In this document: positions 29,355 through 57,436 of the stretch, piece by piece
How positions within the stretch are numbered: position 1 is the first letter of the stretch
Layout of the letters: the number at the start of each line of letters is the position of its first letter
NCBI GenBank assembly: GCA_964590105.1
Contig: CAZPYM010000002.1
Coordinates: 90,697 to 154,696 of the forward strand
Direction of reading: 5' to 3'
DNA: 64,000 nucleotides
From: an uncultured Gammaproteobacteria bacterium
Lineage (GTDB): Bacteria > Patescibacteriota > Patescibacteriia > UBA11705 > JABHMO01
The notes under the pieces: model-generated
What the model saw: only the letters and a program-made list of their open reading frames with translations
Database searches by the model: none
Told to the model about the DNA's origin: nothing
Position numbers and translations under genes: made by a program

Positions 29355-30227
29355 ATGTCGTCAGTAAATAAACTTATAACTGAATTTCTTTTTGACTTGA
29401 GAAAAAGAAAAAGAACCGAGCGCACGGCGCGCAACTATGATTTGTATTTACGCAGATTTTCAGGCTGGCTTGAGCAAAAGCAGATAGAAAACATGGGGCA
29501 AGTAACGCCGGAACTTATTGCCAAGTATAAAATTTGGCTAAAAAAAATAAAAAACCCGATAAAGAAAATTTATTTGAAAGAAAATACTCAGAATTATCAT
29601 TTGATTGCGCTAAGGGAGTTTATCAAGTATTTGGGAAAGAAAAAAATTTTGTCAATTACCAACCCGAAAATCAAATTGCCAAAAACCCTGAAAGTTAAGG
29701 CCGGCTTTCTCAGTAAAGAAGATGTTCAACTTTTATTGGAATCGCCAATGAAAATTTCACAACCCAGATTGATTCAGCTTCGCGATAGAGCGATATTGGA
29801 ATTGTTTTATTCTACCGGAATTCGAGTTTCTGAGGAGGCAAGCCTGCAGGTTAGCGATATAAATTTTCAAAAACAAGAAATTCTTGTTTGTTCCGGGCAG
29901 AAGAAAGAACGCAGAATTAAATTTTCCAATCAAGCCAAGCATTGGCTGGTTCAATATTTGGAAAGAAGAAAAAATAAAAGTAAATATGTTTTTGTGAGTC
30001 ACGACCGAGCAAAAGCAACAAGAGAAGATGCCGGGCTTAGCGCCAGAAGTTTAGAAAGAATAGTTGAAAAATATGCTAGAGGCGCCGGTATTGACAAAAA
30101 AGTCACTCCGCAGATGCTTCGTCATACATATGCATTTCTTTTGGTCGAAAGAACAGCTGATCCGCGGTCAGTTAAACAAAAACTCGGTCACCTTTCTCTA
30201 AATTCAGCGATGAGATACTTTGATTAA
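29355..30227 (+). CDS. xerC: Tyrosine site-specific recombinase XerC/XerD family
   Basis: N-terminal SAM-like core-binding domain. Catalytic domain with R...HxxR (LRHTYAFLL) and C-terminal LGHLSLNSAMRY containing the catalytic Tyr. Confidence 0.85.
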   Translation: MSSVNKLITEFLFDLRKRKRTERTARNYDLYLRRFSGWLEQKQIENMGQVTPELIAKYKIWLKKIKNPIKKIYLKENTQNYHLIALREFIKYLGKKKILSITNPKIKLPKTLKVKAGFLSKEDVQLLLESPMKISQPRLIQLRDRAILELFYSTGIRVSEEASLQVSDINFQKQEILVCSGQKKERRIKFSNQAKHWLVQYLERRKNKSKYVFVSHDRAKATREDAGLSARSLERIVEKYARGAGIDKKVTPQMLRHTYAFLLVERTADPRSVKQKLGHLSLNSAMRYFD

Positions 30228-30589: not shown

Positions 30590-30664
30590 GTCCCTATAGT
30601 TCAGTGGATAGAACACCAGCCTTCTAAGCTGGATACGCAGGTTCGATTCCTGCTGGGGACACCA
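30590..30664 (+). tRNA. tRNA-Arg (anticodon TCT)
   Basis: gtccctatagttcagtggatagaacaccagccttCTaagctggatacgcaggttcgattcctgctggggacacca. Anticodon loop cTTCTAa, so TCT. Confidence 0.85.
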
Positions 30665-49496: not shown

Positions 49497-49721
49497 TTAA
49501 CACGCAAGATGTTCTGTTACCTGAGAAATTTCAATTTCCGGAAAGTCATTTTGTTCATTGTCTTCGCGACAATTCTCGCAATACTCGAAAGCTACAATGA
49601 TTCCTTCAAGTCGAGTGATGCCGGCAATGTCAGCAGTCAGGATTCTTAGATTCTCAAGGTTGTCGACAATCACTTCGCGGCCGCATCGGCCGCATTTGAT
49701 TTTATTTGCGAGAGCGGTCAT
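49497..49721 (-). CDS. Small zinc-ribbon protein, hypothetical
   Basis: CGRCGREV ... CENCRED, i.e. two CxxC pairs; 74 aa. Confidence 0.35.
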   Translation of the reverse strand: MTALANKIKCGRCGREVIVDNLENLRILTADIAGITRLEGIIVAFEYCENCREDNEQNDFPEIEISQVTEHLAC

Positions 49722-50425: not shown

Positions 50426-50550
50426 AAAAATTAGTTATATATTAAATAAAATTATTCGCTAACTCTGAATACTTCGTCCCCCGAAGTTTTTTTCTATAAG
50501 GTTTTTTGGCGTTTTGTCATTTCTTTAATTAATGTGGAGTCGGACATGTC

Positions 50551-51432
50551 CTAATTATTTTTAGAATTTGATTTATAGTTTGCCAGAAAAAAATCAGGAA
50601 TGTATCTGGTGGGGCCATACTGGCCTAGTGGTGTATCAGTTTCTCTCCCATGCGAATCAGAACCGCCGGTGTAATGAAGTGATCGCGCTTCAACTACTTT
50701 TTTTAATAAGTCTATCTGTTCGTTAGTCATGCGGTTGTGGTAGACCTCAATGCCGGTCAATCCAATTTTGAGAAGGTTATTAATTTTAGATTCATTAAGA
50801 GGAAGAGTGACAACGCTCACGGAGACGAAGGGATGAGCAATAATAAGGTCTTGTGCAATGCCTTTAAACTTTTGTATTAGCCATTCGACTGTAACGCCAC
50901 TTCTTTCCACTGCACAAAATTTACCGGGTGCCTGGTATTCATAAAATACATCATCTGGGGTAAACTGTTTGCCGAATTTTTCTAAAAAAAAGTTTTGATT
51001 GACCCTATTTTCGCAAATATCAAGAGCAATGGTCAAGGTTACTGGCTGCTTTTCATTAAGACTGAGGCCTTCGGTTACCGCAAGGCCCGCTTTTCGAGAA
51101 AGCCTTATGGCTGATTCCATCTCCTTTGTTTTTTGACAATGCACGATCGCATTGCGTTCTTTTAATATTTCCGCGACCAAAGCTATATTAAAATCATAGG
51201 CCAAAACATGGATTTCGTTATTGTTGTATTTTGCTGTCAACTCGATTGCCGGAATAACGACAATGCTAGATCCTTCCAGTACAGCCATCAGCTCTTGGAT
51301 GCCCCCCACACTATTATGATCAGCCAAGGCACAGTACTCAAGCTTTTTTTCTTTAACAATCTTTGCGATTTGAGGTACTGATAGTTTACCATCGGAATGG
51401 GTGGAGTGTATATGCAGATCCAGTTTAGACAT
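50551..51432 (-). CDS. PHP-domain metal-dependent phosphoesterase
   Basis: MSKLDLHIHSTHSDG (HxH), ADHNS and further His/Asp ligands typical of PHP (TrpH/YciV-like). Confidence 0.8.
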   Translation of the reverse strand: MSKLDLHIHSTHSDGKLSVPQIAKIVKEKKLEYCALADHNSVGGIQELMAVLEGSSIVVIPAIELTAKYNNNEIHVLAYDFNIALVAEILKERNAIVHCQKTKEMESAIRLSRKAGLAVTEGLSLNEKQPVTLTIALDICENRVNQNFFLEKFGKQFTPDDVFYEYQAPGKFCAVERSGVTVEWLIQKFKGIAQDLIIAHPFVSVSVVTLPLNESKINNLLKIGLTGIEVYHNRMTNEQIDLLKKVVEARSLHYTGGSDSHGRETDTPLGQYGPTRYIPDFFLANYKSNSKNN

Positions 51433-51657
51433 AGATTAAATCTTTATGATAAGAGCCTTTTCGTCTTTTCAGGTTTGTGGTAGCAGGGCTGCGGTACATT
51501 TAGATAAATACGAGAGCGATTTCGTCGTAACGTTCGCATATATCTGATAGCCGACCTTCGCGAGGATATGGGCGGAGATTTGCCGTTAGGCAAGCCGTAG
51601 CCAGAGACGTAATGAAAAGTTTTAATTTTGTGATAACAAAATAATTCAAGACTATTT

Positions 51658-52704
51658 TTATTTTTTTTCCATTAATCCTGTGTTTTTCACGCCTAAAATA
51701 AAATATGGATTTTGAGAATCTTTTCTTTGCATAACTACCCAATAAGGTTTATCTAAAATAAAATTCTTGGGTTTTTGGGGAAGCTCTAACCCCATTGTTA
51801 GTGCAATAACGGCTTCATTTTCTACTCTAGCCCCTTTTTCATCCATGTCAAACTTAATATTTTCAAACATTTCAGCAATAAAATAATTTTCAAAACTTTT
51901 ATTAGCTAACTGTTTTCCAAGTAACTCAATATAATCTCGATGGTGATCAAGATGTAATTTGGGAGCTTCAAAATGATCAGAATCACCGATAGTTGCAAGA
52001 CGACCTTGATTATTTTGATTGATTTCCTTAACAATGATTTGCGGATCATTCATATTATAACCCTTTGCCAAAATTAACTGATCACTCTCATCTTTAAGTT
52101 GTAAACTAACGATAAATTTATCATCATTTTCGTATTTAATAATTTTTACATTATTTCTCTGGTCTTTGTCTTTGGCATAAAATCCTTTTACCTTTTGTTC
52201 GTCAAAAGAAACATCTTTTTTTTCAAATACGGTTTTATACTCAACTTCTTTTAGAAAATATGCATAAGAAATGATATCAGTTGGACTTAAACCAAAACTT
52301 AAGTCGGCAAAGCTTTTGCTGGGAAATTTTTCTTTAGATTCTTTGTTGATGGTATTTACGGTTTCTTGCCCATAACCGCTTTTGATGTAATAACTTTTTT
52401 GGTCTAAATCGTTCTTAGTAAATATGGGGTTATTAAATTTTTCTACCATTTCTATGGCAATCTTTTCATCGGTATTAAGTTTTAATTTTTCGTTTAAAAT
52501 ATTATCATTTAATTCGTTCCATGCCAGGTTCATTGCTCCGCCCCAGACATAATTTTCTTTGTAATCACTGCCAAGATAATTGCCGGTAATATTTACTTTG
52601 GTATTCTGAATAACCTGCGGCTGGCTTGGAGTCTGTTGATTAGCGCAACCAGTTAACAAAAATATGATTGCAATAGCCGGTGTAAAAAGTAGTAGTTTTT
52701 TCAT
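51658..52704 (-). CDS. Serpin-like lipoprotein (serine protease inhibitor family)
   Basis: Lipobox LLTGC. C-terminal EKGARVENEAVIALTMGLE (hinge-like) and FILDKPYWVVMQRKDSQNPYFILGVKN, resembling the serpin F.ADHPFLF.IR...G.ILF.G signature. Confidence 0.55.
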   Translation of the reverse strand: MKKLLLFTPAIAIIFLLTGCANQQTPSQPQVIQNTKVNITGNYLGSDYKENYVWGGAMNLAWNELNDNILNEKLKLNTDEKIAIEMVEKFNNPIFTKNDLDQKSYYIKSGYGQETVNTINKESKEKFPSKSFADLSFGLSPTDIISYAYFLKEVEYKTVFEKKDVSFDEQKVKGFYAKDKDQRNNVKIIKYENDDKFIVSLQLKDESDQLILAKGYNMNDPQIIVKEINQNNQGRLATIGDSDHFEAPKLHLDHHRDYIELLGKQLANKSFENYFIAEMFENIKFDMDEKGARVENEAVIALTMGLELPQKPKNFILDKPYWVVMQRKDSQNPYFILGVKNTGLMEKK

Positions 52705-52807
52705 AGTTTTTTATTTTAAAAATTAAAAGTAGTCTCAAAAAAGATAACGTGTAGCTCCGATGAAGGAGGGGCGAGAGTTCAACGTGGTGCGACCGATAGG
52801 GAGCAAG

Positions 52808-53506
52808 TTAAGAAAAGGCTTTTTTAATTTCATCAAAATCAACTTCAATAAACCTGCCAAAAAATTTCGTGATATTTCGTAAATCTCTATCCAGGATTTC
52901 CTCTGCATTAGGATTGGTCCTTTTGTCTAATGCTTGAGGAAAATCAATAACATAAGGCTCGTTATCCCACCAAAGGACATTATATTCTGACAAATCCGCA
53001 TGAACTATGCCAAAATTCCAAAGCACAATCATTGTATCCAATATTTTCTTGAAAGCATTTTTTGCTTCATCTGCCGATAAGTCAACATCGCATAATCTGG
53101 GAGCTGCAATTTCTCGATTGCCTAAAAATTCCATAAATATTGCATCTCCAATATGTAATACGGGTTTTGGAATCTTGGCTCCCGCCGTATATAATTTTTC
53201 AAGTATGAAATATTCTCTTTTTACCCAATTTTGGTGCTTTAATTTTTTGGCAAATTTATTTCCTTTAGCTACAGCTTTTCTGTGAGATGGTTTCTTATAA
53301 TATTTGCCCATCAAGTATTGACCTGTGTTTTTGAATGATCTTTCTTCAGGTTTTTTATAGACTTTCATCGCAACTAATTGATTGTCTAGTATAACTTTAT
53401 AAACAGTTGCTTCTTTCCCAGATTTTATATTAGAAACCATCTTAATTTCATGATTGAGACGTTTTGCTTCATCAATTATATTTTTAACTTCATTGTTTAT
53501 TGTCAT
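52808..53506 (-). CDS. RIO-type serine/threonine protein kinase
   Basis: GKEATVYKV (ATP-binding), IVHADLSEYNVLW (catalytic loop), YVIDFPQA (metal-binding) are the RIO1 family signatures. Confidence 0.7.
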   Translation of the reverse strand: MTINNEVKNIIDEAKRLNHEIKMVSNIKSGKEATVYKVILDNQLVAMKVYKKPEERSFKNTGQYLMGKYYKKPSHRKAVAKGNKFAKKLKHQNWVKREYFILEKLYTAGAKIPKPVLHIGDAIFMEFLGNREIAAPRLCDVDLSADEAKNAFKKILDTMIVLWNFGIVHADLSEYNVLWWDNEPYVIDFPQALDKRTNPNAEEILDRDLRNITKFFGRFIEVDFDEIKKAFS

Positions 53507-53800
53507 GTGGTAAAGCTGTGGTTTTAAAAAAGCCTTTTCTTAATTTTGTCCAACGTATCTGACTCTCTGATGTTCCGACGTAGCGTAGCGAAGTACGGAA
53601 TATGGGTGGAGCGACTATTCTATTTGAAAAATCCAATTCATTCGAAAATGAGCGGAACCAGATACTCAGTGTTAGCTGATGTAGCGAAAAACAAACATTC
53701 CTTATTATGAGCCCTATTTTTTTCAAGCCCTTTTGAAATTTTGTCTAATCAAGCAAAGGTGAATAGGCTGGGAGGTTGTGGAATAGCCTTGGAACTTTTA

Positions 53801-54664
53801 TCAATAATTTGTTATAAATTCTAACACATTTTTTGCGGTATCAAACTTTGCTTCATGCAATTCCTTTGCCAGCCTTAACCCCCGATAGTACAAGGCAACT
53901 TTAAATATTGGATCATAGTTTTTTTCGTGTCCGTATAATCGTTTTGCATTCGTCAAAAGTATTTTTGCATCCTCTGTGCGATCAGTATAGCCGATCAACT
54001 GCAGTGCTGTGTAGGCAAAATCATAATATTTTAATGACCAACCCGCCCAGCCAGTATCAATCAATAACAATTCGCCGTCATTCAATCTGCCAATATGCCA
54101 TGGCACGATATCATGATGCTGGAATGCCCAGTTACTACCAAACTCACTCATTACACCAATAGCCTGGTCAACAAAGGTTTTTGAAATTAATTCATTTTCA
54201 AGTAAATAGATAGAATTAGTATGGATGTTTTTTTGAAAATTACCTTTTCTAAACATCCAATCATCTTTAATCGTCTGCGGTAGGTCTTTAAATAATATAT
54301 TTCTCATCACCTTTTGCAATTTCATGTATTTATCCAAATAACATTGAATTGGCTCATTGCTACCGCCCAATTCGCCCAACCACACTACCTGTCCTGTTAT
54401 ATCCGAAAACACTATCATTCCATCATCCAAGGTTGTTGGTAGAAACTTAAATCCGCAATCATTTTTCAGAGCAAGATTATGTAAAAATTTTTGGTTATTA
54501 TATTCACGATCGATCATCTTTTTACCGGCGTCAGTCATTGGAGTCTTAATAAAAACTTTTGACGAATCAATTTTTCGACTAGCTAAAACAACCGAATAGT
54601 CGTTAGTTTTCTTAATCGTTGAATTGTAAATATATTTTTCTAATTTCATATAAAGTTTTTCCAA
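53801..54664 (-). CDS. Aminoglycoside phosphotransferase/choline kinase-like (APH) family kinase
   Basis: HHDIVPWHIGRLNDGELLLIDTGWAGW matches the Brenner/APH catalytic motif HGD..P.N...IDWE. Confidence 0.6.
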   Translation of the reverse strand: MEKLYMKLEKYIYNSTIKKTNDYSVVLASRKIDSSKVFIKTPMTDAGKKMIDREYNNQKFLHNLALKNDCGFKFLPTTLDDGMIVFSDITGQVVWLGELGGSNEPIQCYLDKYMKLQKVMRNILFKDLPQTIKDDWMFRKGNFQKNIHTNSIYLLENELISKTFVDQAIGVMSEFGSNWAFQHHDIVPWHIGRLNDGELLLIDTGWAGWSLKYYDFAYTALQLIGYTDRTEDAKILLTNAKRLYGHEKNYDPIFKVALYYRGLRLAKELHEAKFDTAKNVLEFITNY

Positions 54665-54721
54665 ATTTCAAAAGGGCTTGAAAAAAAATTAATAAAGAGT
54701 TTGTTTTTTGCTATTTCAGCT

Positions 54722-54959
54722 AACTGGTTTCTATGCGAAAATAGTTCGCCTTTGATACAAAATTGCGCAGTAAAGGCGAAGTTCGGCAATTTGGATGTTA
54801 CTCCGCCACGCGGAAGACTTCATCCAGCGAAGTGATTCCTTTCAGCGCTTTCATCAGTCCGTCCTGGACCATGGTAATCATGCCGTTCTTGACGGCGAAT
54901 TCCTGCATGTCGTATTCAGAAACTTTGCCGCCGAGAATTATTTTTTCAATTTCCTTGGT
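54722..54959. repeat. 238-bp direct repeat A: duplicated copy of the pilB 3' end and downstream sequence
   Basis: Nearly identical (a handful of substitutions, no indels) to 55570-55807. Confidence 0.8.
54798..54959 (-). pseudogene. Truncated 3' fragment of a pilB/gspE-type ATPase gene (last 53 codons plus stop)
   Basis: Minus-strand translation ends ...GKVSEYDMQEFA.KNGMITMVQDGLMKALKGITSLDEVFRVAE*, the same as the PilB C-terminus at 55646-55807. No upstream coding continuation. Confidence 0.75.
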
Positions 54960-54966
54960 CGTCTAG

Positions 54967-54995
54967 CTTGACATAGGCCAGAAGATGTGCTATCC
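54967..54995 (+). promoter_or_regulatory. Sigma70-type promoter TTGACA, 17 nt, TGcTATCCT (extended -10) for the cassette gene
   Basis: ttgacataggccagaagatgtgctatcct; RBS aaggagg at 55037-55043. Confidence 0.5.
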
Positions 54996-55049
54996 TGATA
55001 AAAGTCAGTAATGGTATTGATAAGTCAAACCTTAACAAAGGAGGAAGTC

Positions 55050-55442
55050 ATGGCAACAGACGGACCAACCCCTGCATCTTGTGATCAAGAGATTTTTCAG
55101 AAAGGCGAGCCCGTGGCCTTTTTGGACGGTAGTTCAAATGCCGTCGAAAATTGGGTTCAAGAAGTCGCCAAAAAGGCAAATGCTCGTGTCGACTGGCATT
55201 ACAGTGGCGGTATCGCTCAGGTCCTTCATTTTGGAGACATGGAAAGCCGCCGGCGTGTTGAAAAAGCAATCGTGAATATGCAGGAAGTCGACAACCCTAG
55301 CGTTATGCGTCGATTAATAGCAGGCTCGCCTGGTTTGTATCGCAAGGGCGTTACAGAAGCACCAAAAGGCGCAGTCGCTGGGTTCATGGATCCGATTTCC
55401 GGCAAGCAAGCCTATATAGTGGTCGACTCAAGCGAGGATTAG
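55050..55442 (+). CDS. Hypothetical protein (130 aa), G+C-elevated cassette gene flanked by pilB 3'-end repeats
   Basis: RBS aaggagg 6 nt before ATG 55050. No recognised motifs. Followed by hairpin ccgccaatataccacaaaggttgaggcgg plus ttttttt (55470-55510). Confidence 0.45.
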   Translation: MATDGPTPASCDQEIFQKGEPVAFLDGSSNAVENWVQEVAKKANARVDWHYSGGIAQVLHFGDMESRRRVEKAIVNMQEVDNPSVMRRLIAGSPGLYRKGVTEAPKGAVAGFMDPISGKQAYIVVDSSED

Positions 55443-55569
55443 TTTACGTATTTTGCGCTCCACTGAATACCGCCAATATACCACAAAGGTTGAGGCGGTT
55501 TTTTTATTTAAAAAATTGAAAAAGGGCTTTTTAAAAAATAAATAATTATTTATTTTTTCTTTTTTACGG

Positions 55570-55807
55570 AACTGGTTTCTATGCGAAAATATTTCGCTTT
55601 AGCCGGAAAGTCTGGTAACAAAGGCGAAGTTCGGCAATTTGGATGTTACTCCGCCACGCGGAAAACTTCATCCAGTGAAGTGATTCCTTTCAGCGCTTTC
55701 ATCAGTCCGTCCTGAACCATGGTGATCATGCCGTTCTTGATGGCGAATTCCTGCATGTCGTATTCAGAAACTTTGCCGCTCAGAATTATTTTTTCAATTT
55801 CCTTGGT
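55570..55807. repeat. 238-bp direct repeat B (native pilB 3' end)
   Basis: Matches 54722-54959. Confidence 0.8.
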
Positions 55808-57436
55808 CATGATCATAATTTCATAAATGCCGATCCGGCCCTTGTAGCCGATGTTGTGGCAAACTTCACAGCCGGGGCTTTTGAAAAATTTCATATTTGC
55901 CAGATCCGGTCGGTCAGGATGGCCTTCGGGTATTGCTTCTAATATTTTTTTGGCTTTTTCCAGTTTTTCCGGTTCCACTTCTGCTTCCTGGCGGCATTTT
56001 TCACACAGCCGGCGGACTAGCCTCTGTCCCATGATTGCATTAAGAGCCGGCGCCATTAAAAATGGTTGGACTCCCATGGCCAGAAATCTGGGAATTGCTC
56101 CGGCCGCGCTATTTGTATGAATAGTGGATATTACCAAGTGGCCGGTAAGCGCCGCGTTGATAGCCACGTCAGCGGTTTCAAGGTCGCGAAGCTCGCCGAC
56201 CATAACAACATCAGGATCCTGACGCAGGATTGAGCGCAGACCATCGGCGAAAGAATAACCTTTGCTATGATCGATTTGGCTTTGGTTGATTCCTTCAAGT
56301 TTATACTCAACAGGATCTTCGAGCGTGATGACTTTAACTCCTTCAACATTTAATTTATTTAAAATCGCGTACAAAGTGGTTGTTTTACCGGAACCGGTCG
56401 GGCCGGTGGTGACAATCATGCCGTTCGGCCGTTCGGCTTGTTCTTTTAGATTGGCAAATGATTTGCCGATTAAACCAAGATCTTCGAAGCTCAGGCCGAC
56501 AGTGCTGGATTTGAGCAAACGCATAACCACGCTCTCTCCCCAGGTGGTCGGTAGTGTGGAAACACGGACATCGATTTTTTCTTTTGTCAGTGAAATTGTA
56601 AAACGCCCGTCCTGCGGCTTGTCAGTAATATTAATTTTCAAACCAGATAATAATTTAACTCTGGAAATAACTTTTGACCAGCTATCTTTGTCAATCGAGG
56701 CGGTATCATGCAAAATTCCGTCAATGCGGAATCTGACTTTTACGTTTTTATCTTCAGCTTCAATATGGATGTCTGACGACCCGGCCTGAATTGAAGCTGC
56801 AATAATCAGCGTAACCATTTCAGTCATGTTTACTTTTTTAATATGAGCATCCAGCGCCTTTAGATCAGTGGCAATTTTTTTGAATTCTTCTAGCTCTTCT
56901 TCCTTGATCTCAACACCGGCAACCGGTTTTTTGTATTTTGGCAGTTTGGCGTAAATGGCCAGCGCTTTGGCCAAATTTCTTTCAGAAATTAAATATATTT
57001 CCGTGTGGGCGCGCAAAGATTCTTCTAGACTGTGCTGAATTTTTTCAATTTCCGGATTTTCTGGCTCAGTGGTGGCCAGGCGCAGTTGCTCGCCAGTATT
57101 GACGAAGCAGACGATTTTTTGTTCTTGGCAAACATTTTGCGGAATGGTTTGTAGAGCTTCGGCGCTTATTGGGAATTCTGTAAAATCAATGTAGGGGAGA
57201 CCCAAGCCTTGCGCATTGGCTTTTATTTTTCCTTCATTTTCATTAATTGTTATTTGTTCCAGCTTGTCGACAAGCTTTTTCGCCACCGGAATATCGTCGG
57301 TTAGAGAGCCTTTTTTGGTTTTGGGAGCAGTTGACTGGCGGTCGTCAGACGCCTGAGACGCAGCTTGCTTGCCCGTAAGGCTGGTTTTGCCTTTGGCAGT
57401 CAGGAGGTCTTCAATTGAGGAGGTTGCTTTGACCAT
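55646..57436 (-). CDS. pilB: Type IV pilus assembly/type II secretion ATPase (PilB/GspE family)
   Basis: N-terminal GspE_N domain, Walker A VTTGPTGSGKTTTLYAIL, Asp and His boxes, and tetracysteine C-terminal motif CEKCRQ...CEVC. Confidence 0.9.
   Translation of the reverse strand: MVKATSSIEDLLTAKGKTSLTGKQAASQASDDRQSTAPKTKKGSLTDDIPVAKKLVDKLEQITINENEGKIKANAQGLGLPYIDFTEFPISAEALQTIPQNVCQEQKIVCFVNTGEQLRLATTEPENPEIEKIQHSLEESLRAHTEIYLISERNLAKALAIYAKLPKYKKPVAGVEIKEEELEEFKKIATDLKALDAHIKKVNMTEMVTLIIAASIQAGSSDIHIEAEDKNVKVRFRIDGILHDTASIDKDSWSKVISRVKLLSGLKINITDKPQDGRFTISLTKEKIDVRVSTLPTTWGESVVMRLLKSSTVGLSFEDLGLIGKSFANLKEQAERPNGMIVTTGPTGSGKTTTLYAILNKLNVEGVKVITLEDPVEYKLEGINQSQIDHSKGYSFADGLRSILRQDPDVVMVGELRDLETADVAINAALTGHLVISTIHTNSAAGAIPRFLAMGVQPFLMAPALNAIMGQRLVRRLCEKCRQEAEVEPEKLEKAKKILEAIPEGHPDRPDLANMKFFKSPGCEVCHNIGYKGRIGIYEIMIMTKEIEKIILSGKVSEYDMQEFAIKNGMITMVQDGLMKALKGITSLDEVFRVAE

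What the first reader, a model, noticed from the sequence alone, without database searches (positions are those of the whole stretch)
54665..55810. Gene cassette flanked by a 238-bp direct duplication of the pilB 3' end
Sequence 54722-54959 is an almost exact copy of 55570-55807, the last 53 codons of pilB plus about 75 bp downstream. Between the copies lie a consensus-like promoter (TTGACA-17-TGcTATCCT), a strong RBS, a G+C-elevated 130-codon gene of unknown function and a terminator hairpin. The arrangement [truncated target 3' end]-[promoter-gene-terminator]-[intact target 3' end] is what site-specific insertion at the 3' end of a gene produces when the element carries a replacement copy of the target end. 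Alternatively it is a remnant of a tandem duplication followed by replacement. Either way it marks a recent structural event and an acquired gene.
Basis: seen in the sequence. Interest (0 to 1): 0.6.

Follow-up and report, generated by a model that had tools for sequence, protein, structure and literature searches.

The report
Displaced pilB end beside swapped-in gene
In a tiny uncultured (CPR/Patescibacteria) bacterium, a self-contained one-gene unit of unknown function joined the DNA just after the pilus-motor gene pilB by recombination through that gene's tail, leaving a spare 236-base copy of the tail; the event is ordinary, but the region is built from odd, swappable single-gene units bracketed by inverted repeats.

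Summary
Window 54725-54960 repeats 55573-55808 (offset 848): the last 54 pilB codons plus 73 nt downstream. Identity is 96%, except for a 25-nt block at 48%. One independent contig spans both copies at 100%, and two more support the junctions, so it is not an assembly artefact.

Between the copies lie a TTGACA-17-TATCCT promoter, an RBS, a 130-codon gene and a terminator. The protein belongs to a conserved, uncharacterised Patescibacteria family with a ferredoxin-like fold.

Site-specific integration is not supported. The 64 kb holds no integrase or transposase, only a Xer-like gene 25 kb away. Homology runs past the pilB stop codon. The inner junction lies at a 16/18-nt match between pilB codons and the left inverted arm that brackets this gene in close relatives.

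Copy A starts exactly where a second unit (orf287, 53671-54724) ends, and copy B starts where the 130-aa unit's right arm ends. Most likely, recombination anchored in pilB homology and closed at that microhomology added the unit and displaced the native pilB end. An in-place duplication followed by a unit swap is not excluded.

The wider region (50.4-55.6 kb) is a lineage-specific islet. At least three of its genes are, or in relatives were, bracketed by inverted repeats, and how these units move is unknown.

The parts
55646..57436 (-). pilB: GspE/PilB-type pilus assembly ATPase, 596 aa, intact.
   Evidence: Pfam T2SSE 1.5e-123 and MshEN. Conserved synteny ychF - up287 - pilB in relatives.
55573..55808 (-). 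Repeat copy B: the last 54 codons of the intact pilB (55646-55808) plus 73 nt downstream (55573-55645).
   Evidence: Its left edge coincides with the end of homology between the 130-aa unit and L094/L098/L204 (55572).
54725..54960 (-). Repeat copy A: a displaced pilB 3' end. The CDS-like part is 54798-54960, in frame and ending in TAA; the 73 nt downstream is 54725-54797.
   Evidence: Compared with copy B it has 5 synonymous and 2 conservative changes and no indels. Its left edge abuts the end of the orf287 unit, as defined by L212.
54747..54771 (.). A 25-nt block that is only 48% identical to its partner at 55595-55619. It forms the loop of a hairpin whose stem (TTCGC(C)TTT / AAAGGCGAA) is conserved in both copies.
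54943..54960 (.). Inner junction. The pilB codons TTTTTCAATTTCCTTGGT match the inner end of the left arm of the 130-aa unit in L094/L098 (TTTTTCAATTTTCGTGGT) at 16 of 18 positions. pilB homology ends here.
   Evidence: Alignment A4.
54968..54996 (+). Promoter of the 130-aa gene: TTGACA, 17 nt, TG-n-TATCCT.
   Evidence: An equivalent TTGAC(A/T)-17-TATxxT lies upstream of the homologues in L094, L095, L097, L098, L204 and L205.
55050..55442 (+). The 130-aa gene, with its RBS AAGGAGG at 55038-55044. It belongs to a conserved Patescibacteria family of unknown function.
   Evidence: 134 homologues, no Pfam or NCBIfam match. AF2 pLDDT 88 with a ferredoxin-like fold. Invariant residues C11, G19, E33, D48-W-H-Y51, A56, G62.
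55470..55506 (+). Intrinsic terminator of the 130-aa gene.
   Evidence: sequence.
55507..55572 (+). Right arm of the 130-aa unit. It carries the motif AAAATTGAAAAAGGGCT followed by an AT-rich spacer and ends in ACGGAAC. The matching left arm has been lost in this genome.
   Evidence: 88.6% and 82.9% identical over 105 nt to the same position in L094 and L098; 76% to L204. An inverted partner lies upstream of the gene in relatives. The window's gene has no significant bracket.
53671..54724 (-). orf287 unit: a kinase-like 282/287-aa gene (CDS 53801-54649/54664) bracketed by inverted arms at 53671-53741 and 54663-54724. The arms include a perfect 25-nt pair and terminal GTTAGCT...AGCTAAC.
   Evidence: 0 of 300 shuffles reach the observed score. 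L212 matches 54723-53662 and L206-L211 match 54650-53671, with unrelated flanks.
53652..53685 (+). 'E-left' box, CGGAACCAGATAC-N5-GTTAGCTG...: a conserved element that flanks gene units in relatives.
   Evidence: nhmmer with a profile built only from relatives gives E=1.1e-6, the sole significant hit in 64 kb. Also found in L204 and L206.
53549..53612 (+). 'E-right'-like element: AAC-N7-GTATCTG...GCGAAGT...ATATGGGTGGAG.
   Evidence: Top nhmmer hit in the window, but E=0.33. Weak BLAST matches to L095. Tentative.
52800..53551 (-). RIO-type kinase gene (52808-53506) bracketed by 28-nt inverted repeats with the core TTAAGAAAAGGCTTTTTTAA. One arm overlaps the last codons.
50426..55645 (.). Lineage-specific accessory islet between g203 and pilB. 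It holds a PHP phosphoesterase, a serpin-like lipoprotein, the RIO kinase, orf287 and the 130-aa gene.
   Evidence: In relatives pilB is followed by an ordinary terminator. In L017 it is followed directly by the g203 homologue. Three islet genes are 31-35% GC against 44% elsewhere.

Best explanation
The 130-aa gene is a self-contained expression unit: promoter, RBS, gene and terminator. In close relatives it is bracketed by inverted arms. In this genome it joined the site 73 nt downstream of pilB through recombination that used the pilB 3' region as a homology anchor. The other end was closed by an illegitimate join at an 18-nt near-match between pilB codons (...KEIEKI...) and the inner end of the unit's left arm.

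This could have been homology-facilitated illegitimate recombination of DNA taken up from a related strain. It could equally have been Campbell-type integration of an 848-nt circle.

The proposed donor arrangement was [left arm - promoter - gene - terminator - right arm | pilB-downstream - pilB]. The proposed recipient was [orf287 unit | pilB-downstream - pilB]. Because the illegitimate join fell inside the anchor, 236 nt were duplicated. Copy A would be the displaced native pilB end, still followed by orf287. Copy B would complete the working pilB.

**Shown:**
- the repeat and its exact edges;
- the coincidence of those edges with the ends of two independently defined units;
- the microhomology at the junction;
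- the loss of the left arm;
- the absence of a nearby integrase.

**Inferred:**
- import from another strain rather than an in-place event;
- which copy is native;
- the molecular form of the incoming DNA.

No integrase-type site-specific step is needed. The function of the 130-aa protein is unknown. It is a small ferredoxin-fold protein with conserved Cys, Glu, Asp and His residues. A ligand- or metal-binding role is my guess only.
For: 1. The repeat is real and independently assembled.
2. Edges: copy A starts at 54725, one base after the orf287 unit ends, as defined by L212 and L206. Copy B starts at 55573, one base after homology of the 130-aa unit with L094/L098/L204 ends. So two different units abut the same nucleotide downstream of pilB. 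This is expected if two haplotypes recombined through the shared pilB segment.
3. The junction shows a 16/18 match between pilB codons and the left arm of L094/L098.
4. Six brackets are significant (0/300 shuffles): the 130-aa gene in five of six close relatives, and a 91-aa neighbour in L094. The window's copy is not significantly bracketed (10/300). Its left arm is therefore missing.
5. Divergence pattern: pN/pS = 0.11, with 5 synonymous and 2 non-synonymous changes. Fisher P=0.005 against neutrality. Both replacements (S/G, I/V) are states seen in functional PilB of relatives. There are no indels or stop codons. This fits two functional alleles.
6. The 25-nt loop block at 48% identity cannot be point divergence (P~1e-12). 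It looks like allelic replacement of a hairpin loop.
7. No integrase or transposase lies in 64 kb. The one tyrosine recombinase is Xer-like: it scores 172 bits on XerA and only 72 bits on the integron-integrase model, whose cutoff is 265.
8. Relatives lack the structure.
Against: - No donor haplotype (130-aa unit with an intact left arm next to pilB) and no empty-site haplotype (orf287 unit directly after pilB) was found. The protein search found no close PilB alleles.
- The synonymous excess is only marginal (P=0.057) against a model in which copy A decays neutrally in place while copy B stays constrained.
- The left-arm sequence used for the microhomology argument comes from relatives about 80% identical, not from the actual donor.
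- A 28-nt stretch left of the divergent loop is 96% identical between the copies. A simple 'different alleles' model has to treat this as conservation.
Confidence: 0.5

Rival explanations
1. An event within this one genome. The 130-aa unit already lay next to pilB. Slippage, unequal sister exchange, or ectopic gene conversion between the 18-nt match (left arm versus pilB codons, 848 nt apart in direct orientation) duplicated the 848-nt segment or copied the pilB end over the left arm. The leftward copy of the gene was then replaced by the orf287 unit.
For: - The same microhomology sits at the junction, and the 848-nt period equals the distance between the two matching sites.
- Units do appear exchangeable, with sharp ends.
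- The in-place divergence model is not rejected at 5% (P=0.057).
- L095/L096 assemble as a closed 1424-nt cycle. Recent duplications or circles may therefore recur in this kind of locus.
Against: - It needs at least two events, including a unit swap that restores exactly the same boundary nucleotide.
- It has to explain a 25-nt loop replacement inside a segment that is otherwise 96% identical.
- Copy A has no indel or stop codon and only conservative replacements, despite pS=0.15.
Confidence: 0.27
2. Site-specific integration. A recombinase, either the host Xer-like enzyme or an unidentified one, inserts gene units at a fixed attachment point downstream of pilB. The incoming element carried its own copy of the pilB end.
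For: - Two different units end at the same nucleotide, 73 nt after the pilB stop codon.
- A 44-nt identical run spans the stop codon.
- Conserved boxes and a compensating hairpin flank units in relatives.
- There is a possible 1424-nt circle.
Against: - No recombinase lies in or beside the element.
- The inner junction lies in pilB coding sequence at a microhomology, not at a repeated core.
- Homology covers coding and non-coding DNA alike.
- The sequence right after pilB is not significantly similar to the relatives' boxes (E=2.2 for copy A; no hit at E<=10 for copy B).
Confidence: 0.15
3. Assembly artefact: a collapsed or expanded repeat, or a chimera of two strains.
For: The source is a metagenome-assembled genome. 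Close relatives of this locus assemble only into 1-1.9 kb contigs.
Against: - L001 reproduces all 1446 nt across both copies at 100% in a separate assembly. L002 and L003 agree.
- The copies differ at 21 positions, and the longest identical run is 44 nt. That is shorter than reads and final k-mers.
Confidence: 0.03

Closest known systems
Homology-facilitated illegitimate recombination (HFIR) during natural transformation, and Campbell-type single-crossover integration.
   Same: One homologous anchor (the pilB 3' region), a short microhomology at the other joint, insertion of foreign DNA, and duplication of recipient sequence when the joint falls inside the anchor. No dedicated recombinase is needed. 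The host carries competence/pilus genes.
   Different: Nothing here shows DNA uptake or the donor molecule. The inserted DNA is itself a unit that is normally bracketed by inverted repeats, so a dedicated mobility mechanism may also exist.
Integrative elements that target the 3' end of a gene or tRNA and carry a replacement end.
   Same: The layout is the same: a displaced native end on one side of the insert and a functional reconstituted end on the other.
   Different: There is no integrase. The element is under 1 kb. Homology extends beyond the gene end. One junction lies at a microhomology inside coding sequence.
Integron gene cassettes / CALIN arrays.
   Same: Single-gene units with different neighbours in different genomes. 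The units are separated by imperfectly palindromic elements with conserved end boxes and a variable, compensating hairpin. Unit ends read GTT.../...AAC, and GTTAGGC/GCCTAAC in L097.
   Different: No IntI is present. The units carry their own promoters and terminators and sit in either orientation. The inverted repeats bracket the gene rather than forming a compact 57-141-nt attC after it, and the GTT/AAC geometry is reversed. No literature on integrons in CPR bacteria was found in this library.
pdif (XerC/D) modules of Acinetobacter plasmids, and cargo-carrying MITE-like elements.
   Same: Gene modules are bounded by short sites in alternating inverted orientation. The same module occurs in different contexts. 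The only recombinase candidate is a Xer-type enzyme encoded elsewhere.
   Different: The boxes show no evident 11-6-11 dif-like dyad. No target-site duplication was seen. The locus is chromosomal, in a CPR bacterium. Mobility was not demonstrated.

Membership tests
Type II/IV secretion ATPase (PilB/GspE), for the target gene | T2SSE ATPase domain with an N-terminal MshEN/GSPII-type domain, full length. | tested here: met
   PF00437 1.5e-123 over residues 205-593; PF05157 1.4e-7. The C-terminus aligns with the PilB of relatives.
Integrase-mediated integrative element with replacement 3' end | A tyrosine or serine integrase encoded within or beside the element. | tested here: not met
   The 612/848-nt insert encodes only the 130-aa protein. 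Pfam scans of about 55 ORFs in the window found one recombinase, Xer-like, 25 kb away.
Integrase-mediated integrative element with replacement 3' end | Homology between the two ends is limited to the target gene's 3' part, with an identical crossover core. | tested here: not met
   Homology continues 73 nt past the stop codon. The longest identical run is 44 nt, but the far junction lies at a microhomology in coding sequence.
Integron / cassette array | An IntI integrase with attI next to the array. | tested here: not met
   The only tyrosine recombinase scores 72 bits on TIGR02249 (cutoff 265) and 172 bits on XerA. It is not adjacent to the islet.
Integron / cassette array | Compact attC (57-141 nt; R''-L''...L'-R' with RYYYAAC...GTTRRRY) after each mostly promoterless ORF. 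| tested here: inconclusive
   GTT.../...AAC motifs occur at unit ends, and a compensating hairpin is present. However, the repeats bracket the gene, the geometry is reversed, and the units have their own promoters. No attC covariance model was available to run.
TIR transposon / MITE with cargo | Terminal inverted repeats at the exact ends of the unit. | tested here: met
   The orf287 unit ends in GTTAGCTGA..../....TCAGCTAAC, and homology to L212 and L206 stops there. Brackets are significant in seven cases.
TIR transposon / MITE with cargo | Target-site duplication and a cognate transposase. | tested here: not met
   No direct repeat flanks the arms in the window, L094, L097, L098 or L212. 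No transposase lies in the window. The rest of the genome could not be searched.
RAYT / IS200-IS605 TnpA (HUH Y1 enzymes flanked by inverted hairpin repeats), considered for the 130-aa protein | HUH motif with a catalytic Tyr on a TnpA-like fold. | tested here: not met
Homology-facilitated illegitimate recombination / Campbell-type insertion-duplication | A homologous anchor on one side and microhomology at the illegitimate joint, with duplication of the anchor segment. | tested here: met
   A 236-nt anchor is duplicated, and the joint shows a 16/18-nt match.
Homology-facilitated illegitimate recombination / Campbell-type insertion-duplication | The incoming DNA came from a different genome. 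| tested here: inconclusive
   pN/pS = 0.11. Neutral divergence of both copies is rejected at P=0.005-0.006 (Fisher and binomial), but P=0.057 against in-place decay of one copy. The loop replacement has P~1e-12. No donor haplotype was retrieved.

The most novel reading that the evidence does not exclude
The islet may be one instance of an undescribed cassette-like system in Patescibacteria. Its features would be:
- single-gene units, each with its own promoter and terminator;
- brackets of inverted arms that stay complementary to each other while differing between lineages;
- conserved 'E' boxes with a compensating hairpin outside the arms.

Such units would move between genomes and dock at preferred points, here exactly 73 nt after pilB. 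They might travel as small circles, as the closed 1424-nt cycle L095/L096 hints. The enzyme could be a trans-acting host recombinase such as the Xer-like protein, or a hairpin-dependent enzyme. On this reading, the pilB duplication is a by-product of one such docking event.
Probability: 0.22. Interest if true: 0.75.

Novelty: new variant of a known kind. Interest (0 to 1): 0.42.

Why it matters
The duplication itself is a small, ordinary structural variant. Its value is that it preserves a gene-gain event in a CPR bacterium at nucleotide resolution. These organisms have tiny genomes, are thought to depend on DNA uptake through pili, and their routes of gene acquisition are poorly documented.

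It also exposed a set of sharply bounded, inverted-repeat-bracketed single-gene units that recur in unrelated contexts with no recombinase nearby. If these prove to be a real mobility system, they would give a handle on accessory-gene flux in Patescibacteria. If not, the locus is simply a recombination-prone variable islet.

Tried and rejected
2. **Genome-wide signal.** The AAAAGGGCTT motif could have been a promoter or terminator signal used across the genome. Rejected: its only exact copies in 64 kb are three in the islet, and the count with one mismatch equals chance.
3. **pilB-downstream as an E-right element.** It seemed so by eye (AAC-N7-TATGCGAA...CGAAGTTCGGCAATTTGGATG against L095 and L097). 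This is not established: nhmmer gives E=2.2 for copy A and no hit at E<=10 for copy B, and BLAST to the relatives finds nothing. I keep it only as a lead.
4. **Known RNA family** for the intergenic elements. None: Rfam gathering and E-value searches gave only a FuFi-1 hit at E=0.25.
5. **Viral scan with the E-left box.** 25 single hits. Only L184 matched beyond the seed, and it lies in coding sequence, so I treat it as chance.
6. **Metagenome scan anchored on the PilB C-terminus.** Saturated by generic motifs; best hit 71%. The exact-protein look-up for PilB found nothing on record. The PilB C-terminus protein search returned fragments at 75% or less, apart from L001's own fragment.
7. **Defence, phage or plasmid affiliation.** There are no PHROGs hits for any islet protein and no PADLOC hit for the 130-aa protein. 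The kinase gives only generic domain hits. There are no plasmid matches.
8. **Elevated G+C as evidence of foreign origin.** Not supported.
Full report
**Setting.** The window is from a Patescibacteria (CPR) genome.
- The closest PilB proteins, at 66-72% identity, are from Kuenenbacteria, Falkowbacteria and Parcubacteria MAGs.
- The window contains dnaA-dnaN and mostly housekeeping genes.
- pilB (55646-57436, minus strand) is a full-length GspE/PilB ATPase.
- On its upstream side, the order ychF - up287 - pilB is conserved in relatives.
- On its downstream side, relatives reach tsaD after a variable 0.3-5 kb. In L017 pilB is followed directly by the g203 homologue.
- In this window, five extra genes lie between g203 and pilB (50426-55645): a PHP phosphoesterase, a serpin-like lipoprotein, a RIO-type kinase, a kinase-like orf287 and the 130-aa gene.
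- Three of the five are 31-35% GC, against 44 +/- 6.5% for other genes in the window.

**The observation.** The direct repeat is real.
- Outside one 25-nt block the copies differ at 8 of 210 positions. Inside that block (55595-55619) they differ at 13 of 25, with P~1e-12 under uniform divergence.
- In the 53 complete shared codons there are 5 synonymous and 2 non-synonymous differences (pS 0.147, pN 0.016), with no indels. Copy A keeps the reading frame and the stop codon.
- Both replacements (S/G, I/V) are states found in functional PilB of relatives.
- The divergent block is the loop of a hairpin whose stem is conserved in both copies.
- L001, from a separate assembly, matches 54449-55894 at 100% and spans every junction. 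L002 and L003 agree. An assembly artefact is therefore very unlikely.

**The gene.** The 130-aa protein has 134 homologues at E<=0.01, and every hit that carries a taxon name is from Patescibacteria.
- It matches no Pfam, NCBIfam, PHROGs or PADLOC family.
- The invariant residues are C11, G19, E33, D48-W49-H50-Y51, A56 and G62.
- More distant homologues sit in fixed housekeeping contexts: between mfd and dprA in one lineage, and near a hibernation-factor gene in another. They have no flanking repeats.

**Close relatives.** The closest homologues retrieved with contigs (66-86% aa) all lie on short contigs: L094, L095 (identical to L096), L097, L098, L204 and L205.
- Their neighbouring genes are unrelated to one another and to anything in the window.
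- In five of the six, the promoter-gene-terminator unit is bracketed by inverted arms of 16-26 matched nt. In 300 shuffles, none reached the observed score. A 91-aa neighbour in L094 and orf287 in the window are bracketed in the same way. Control genes and the distant homologues are not.
- The arms differ between lineages yet remain complementary within each locus.
- Outside the arms lie conserved boxes. A profile of 'E-left' built only from relatives finds one significant site in the window, 53652-53685 (E=1e-6). It also finds L204 and L206, which were not used to build it.
- 'E-right' has two conserved boxes around a hairpin. In 9 of 10 copies from relatives the stem closes at the same positions but with unrelated sequences.
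- In the window, E-right is only weakly detectable (E=0.33 at 53549-53612).

**Exact unit boundaries.**
- L212 matches the window from 54723 to 53662. That covers orf287 and both of its arms, and the flanks are unrelated.
- L206-L211 match from 54650 to 53671 and stop at the arm end. In those contigs the gene is fused into a different operon.
- The orf287 unit is therefore 53671-54724.
- Homology of the 130-aa unit with L094, L098 and L204 ends at 55572.
- The high-identity pilB repeat begins at 54725 and 55573, the very next nucleotide in each case.
- The 76% similarity further left (54663-54721 against 55513-55569) reflects a shared arm motif, not the duplication.

**The inner junction.** pilB homology in copy A ends at 54960.
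- The last 18 nt (TTTTTCAATTTCCTTGGT, codons ...KEIEK...) match the inner end of the left arm in L094/L098 (TTTTTCAATTTTCGTGGT) at 16 positions. In those relatives the -35 hexamer follows almost immediately.
- The window's 130-aa gene has a right arm but no significant bracket.
- So its left arm was replaced by the pilB fragment through recombination at this short match.

**Mechanism.** These facts fit a single recombination between two arrangements that shared the pilB 3' region but carried different units at the same downstream position. One had the orf287 unit there and the other had the 130-aa unit. The shared segment served as the homologous anchor, and the other end was closed at the microhomology. 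Because that joint lay inside the anchor, 236 nt were duplicated.
- Support for two alleles comes from the excess of synonymous changes (P=0.005-0.006 against neutrality), the tolerated replacements, the intact frame of copy A and the replaced hairpin loop. All suggest the copies diverged as functional alleles in different strains.
- The excess is only marginal (P=0.057) against in-place decay of one copy.
- I could not retrieve a donor or an empty-site haplotype.
- An event within this genome, using the same microhomology and followed by a unit swap, therefore remains a serious rival.
- Integrase-type insertion is unlikely. No integrase or transposase lies in 64 kb. The single tyrosine recombinase, 25 kb away, is Xer-like.

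**Comparison with known systems.** The event works like homology-facilitated illegitimate recombination or Campbell-type insertion-duplication. The bracketed units resemble integron cassettes, pdif modules or cargo-carrying MITEs in some respects. Each fails at least one defining test:
- no IntI, and the geometry differs from attC;
- no dif-like dyad;
- no target-site duplication or transposase.

No RNA family matches the elements. This library holds no report of integron-like arrays in CPR bacteria.

**Verdict.** The finding is genuine and correctly located. The event itself is of modest interest. The bracketed, exchangeable single-gene units and the closed 1424-nt cycle are the unexplained part that deserves follow-up.

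Noticed in passing
L095 and L096 (whole contigs, 1565 nt): Two JGI samples give the same contig, rotated by 1280 nt, with an exact 141-nt terminal overlap. It forms a closed 1424-nt cycle carrying a 130-aa homologue (79% aa), a 140-aa acidic protein on the other strand, two E-right elements and one E-left. It is either a small circle or a tandem array.
   Followed up: partly
window 52800-52827 and 53524-53551: The RIO-type kinase gene is bracketed by a 28-nt inverted repeat (20 nt perfect) with the same AAAAGGCTTTT core as the other arms. One arm encodes the last five codons (KKAFS*).
   Followed up: partly
window 53613-53651: About 40 nt of AT-rich filler lie between an E-right-like box (…GGGTGGAG) and E-left (CGGAACC…). 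This is the position where relatives hold a whole gene unit. L095 has a similar 36-nt filler. It may be an empty slot or a scar.
   Followed up: no
window 55533-55558: A perfect 26-nt all-A/T palindrome (AAAAAATAAATAATTATTTATTTTTT) lies inside the right arm of the 130-aa unit.
   Followed up: no
window 52757-52809 and L204:1616-1667: The serpin/RIO intergenic region shares a box (GCGACCGATAGGGAGCAAGTT) with the element upstream of the 130-aa homologue in L204 (74% over 53 nt, E=7e-4). The islet's older intergenic regions may be decayed copies of the same element family.
   Followed up: partly
L206:1856-1884: A 28-nt E-left-like sequence (93% identical to window 53656-53683) lies between a GNAT gene and a 197-aa gene, in the sister lineage that carries the orf287 homologue inside an operon.
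   Followed up: no
window 54937-54965, minus strand: A weak promoter-like match (TAGACG-17-AATAAT, 9/12) straddles the junction and points through copy A toward orf287. No promoter could be placed between orf287's upstream arm and its start codon, which are only about 14 nt apart.
   Followed up: no
phage record LR756511.1, 39695-40030: The only phage-collection match to the 130-aa protein is 39% identity over 84% of its length, in a 595-kb 'uncultured phage' record with no annotation.
   Followed up: no
window 49497-49721 (minus strand): A 74-aa CxxC...CxxC ORF lies next to g203. By eye, L014 and L020 have an ORF on the opposite strand just downstream of pilB, but I did not test it for homology to this one.
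   Followed up: no
window 29355-30227: This is the only recombinase in the window. It is Xer-like (best NCBIfam match XerA-type, below its cutoff) and is followed by tRNA-Arg genes at 30590 and 31063.
   Followed up: partly
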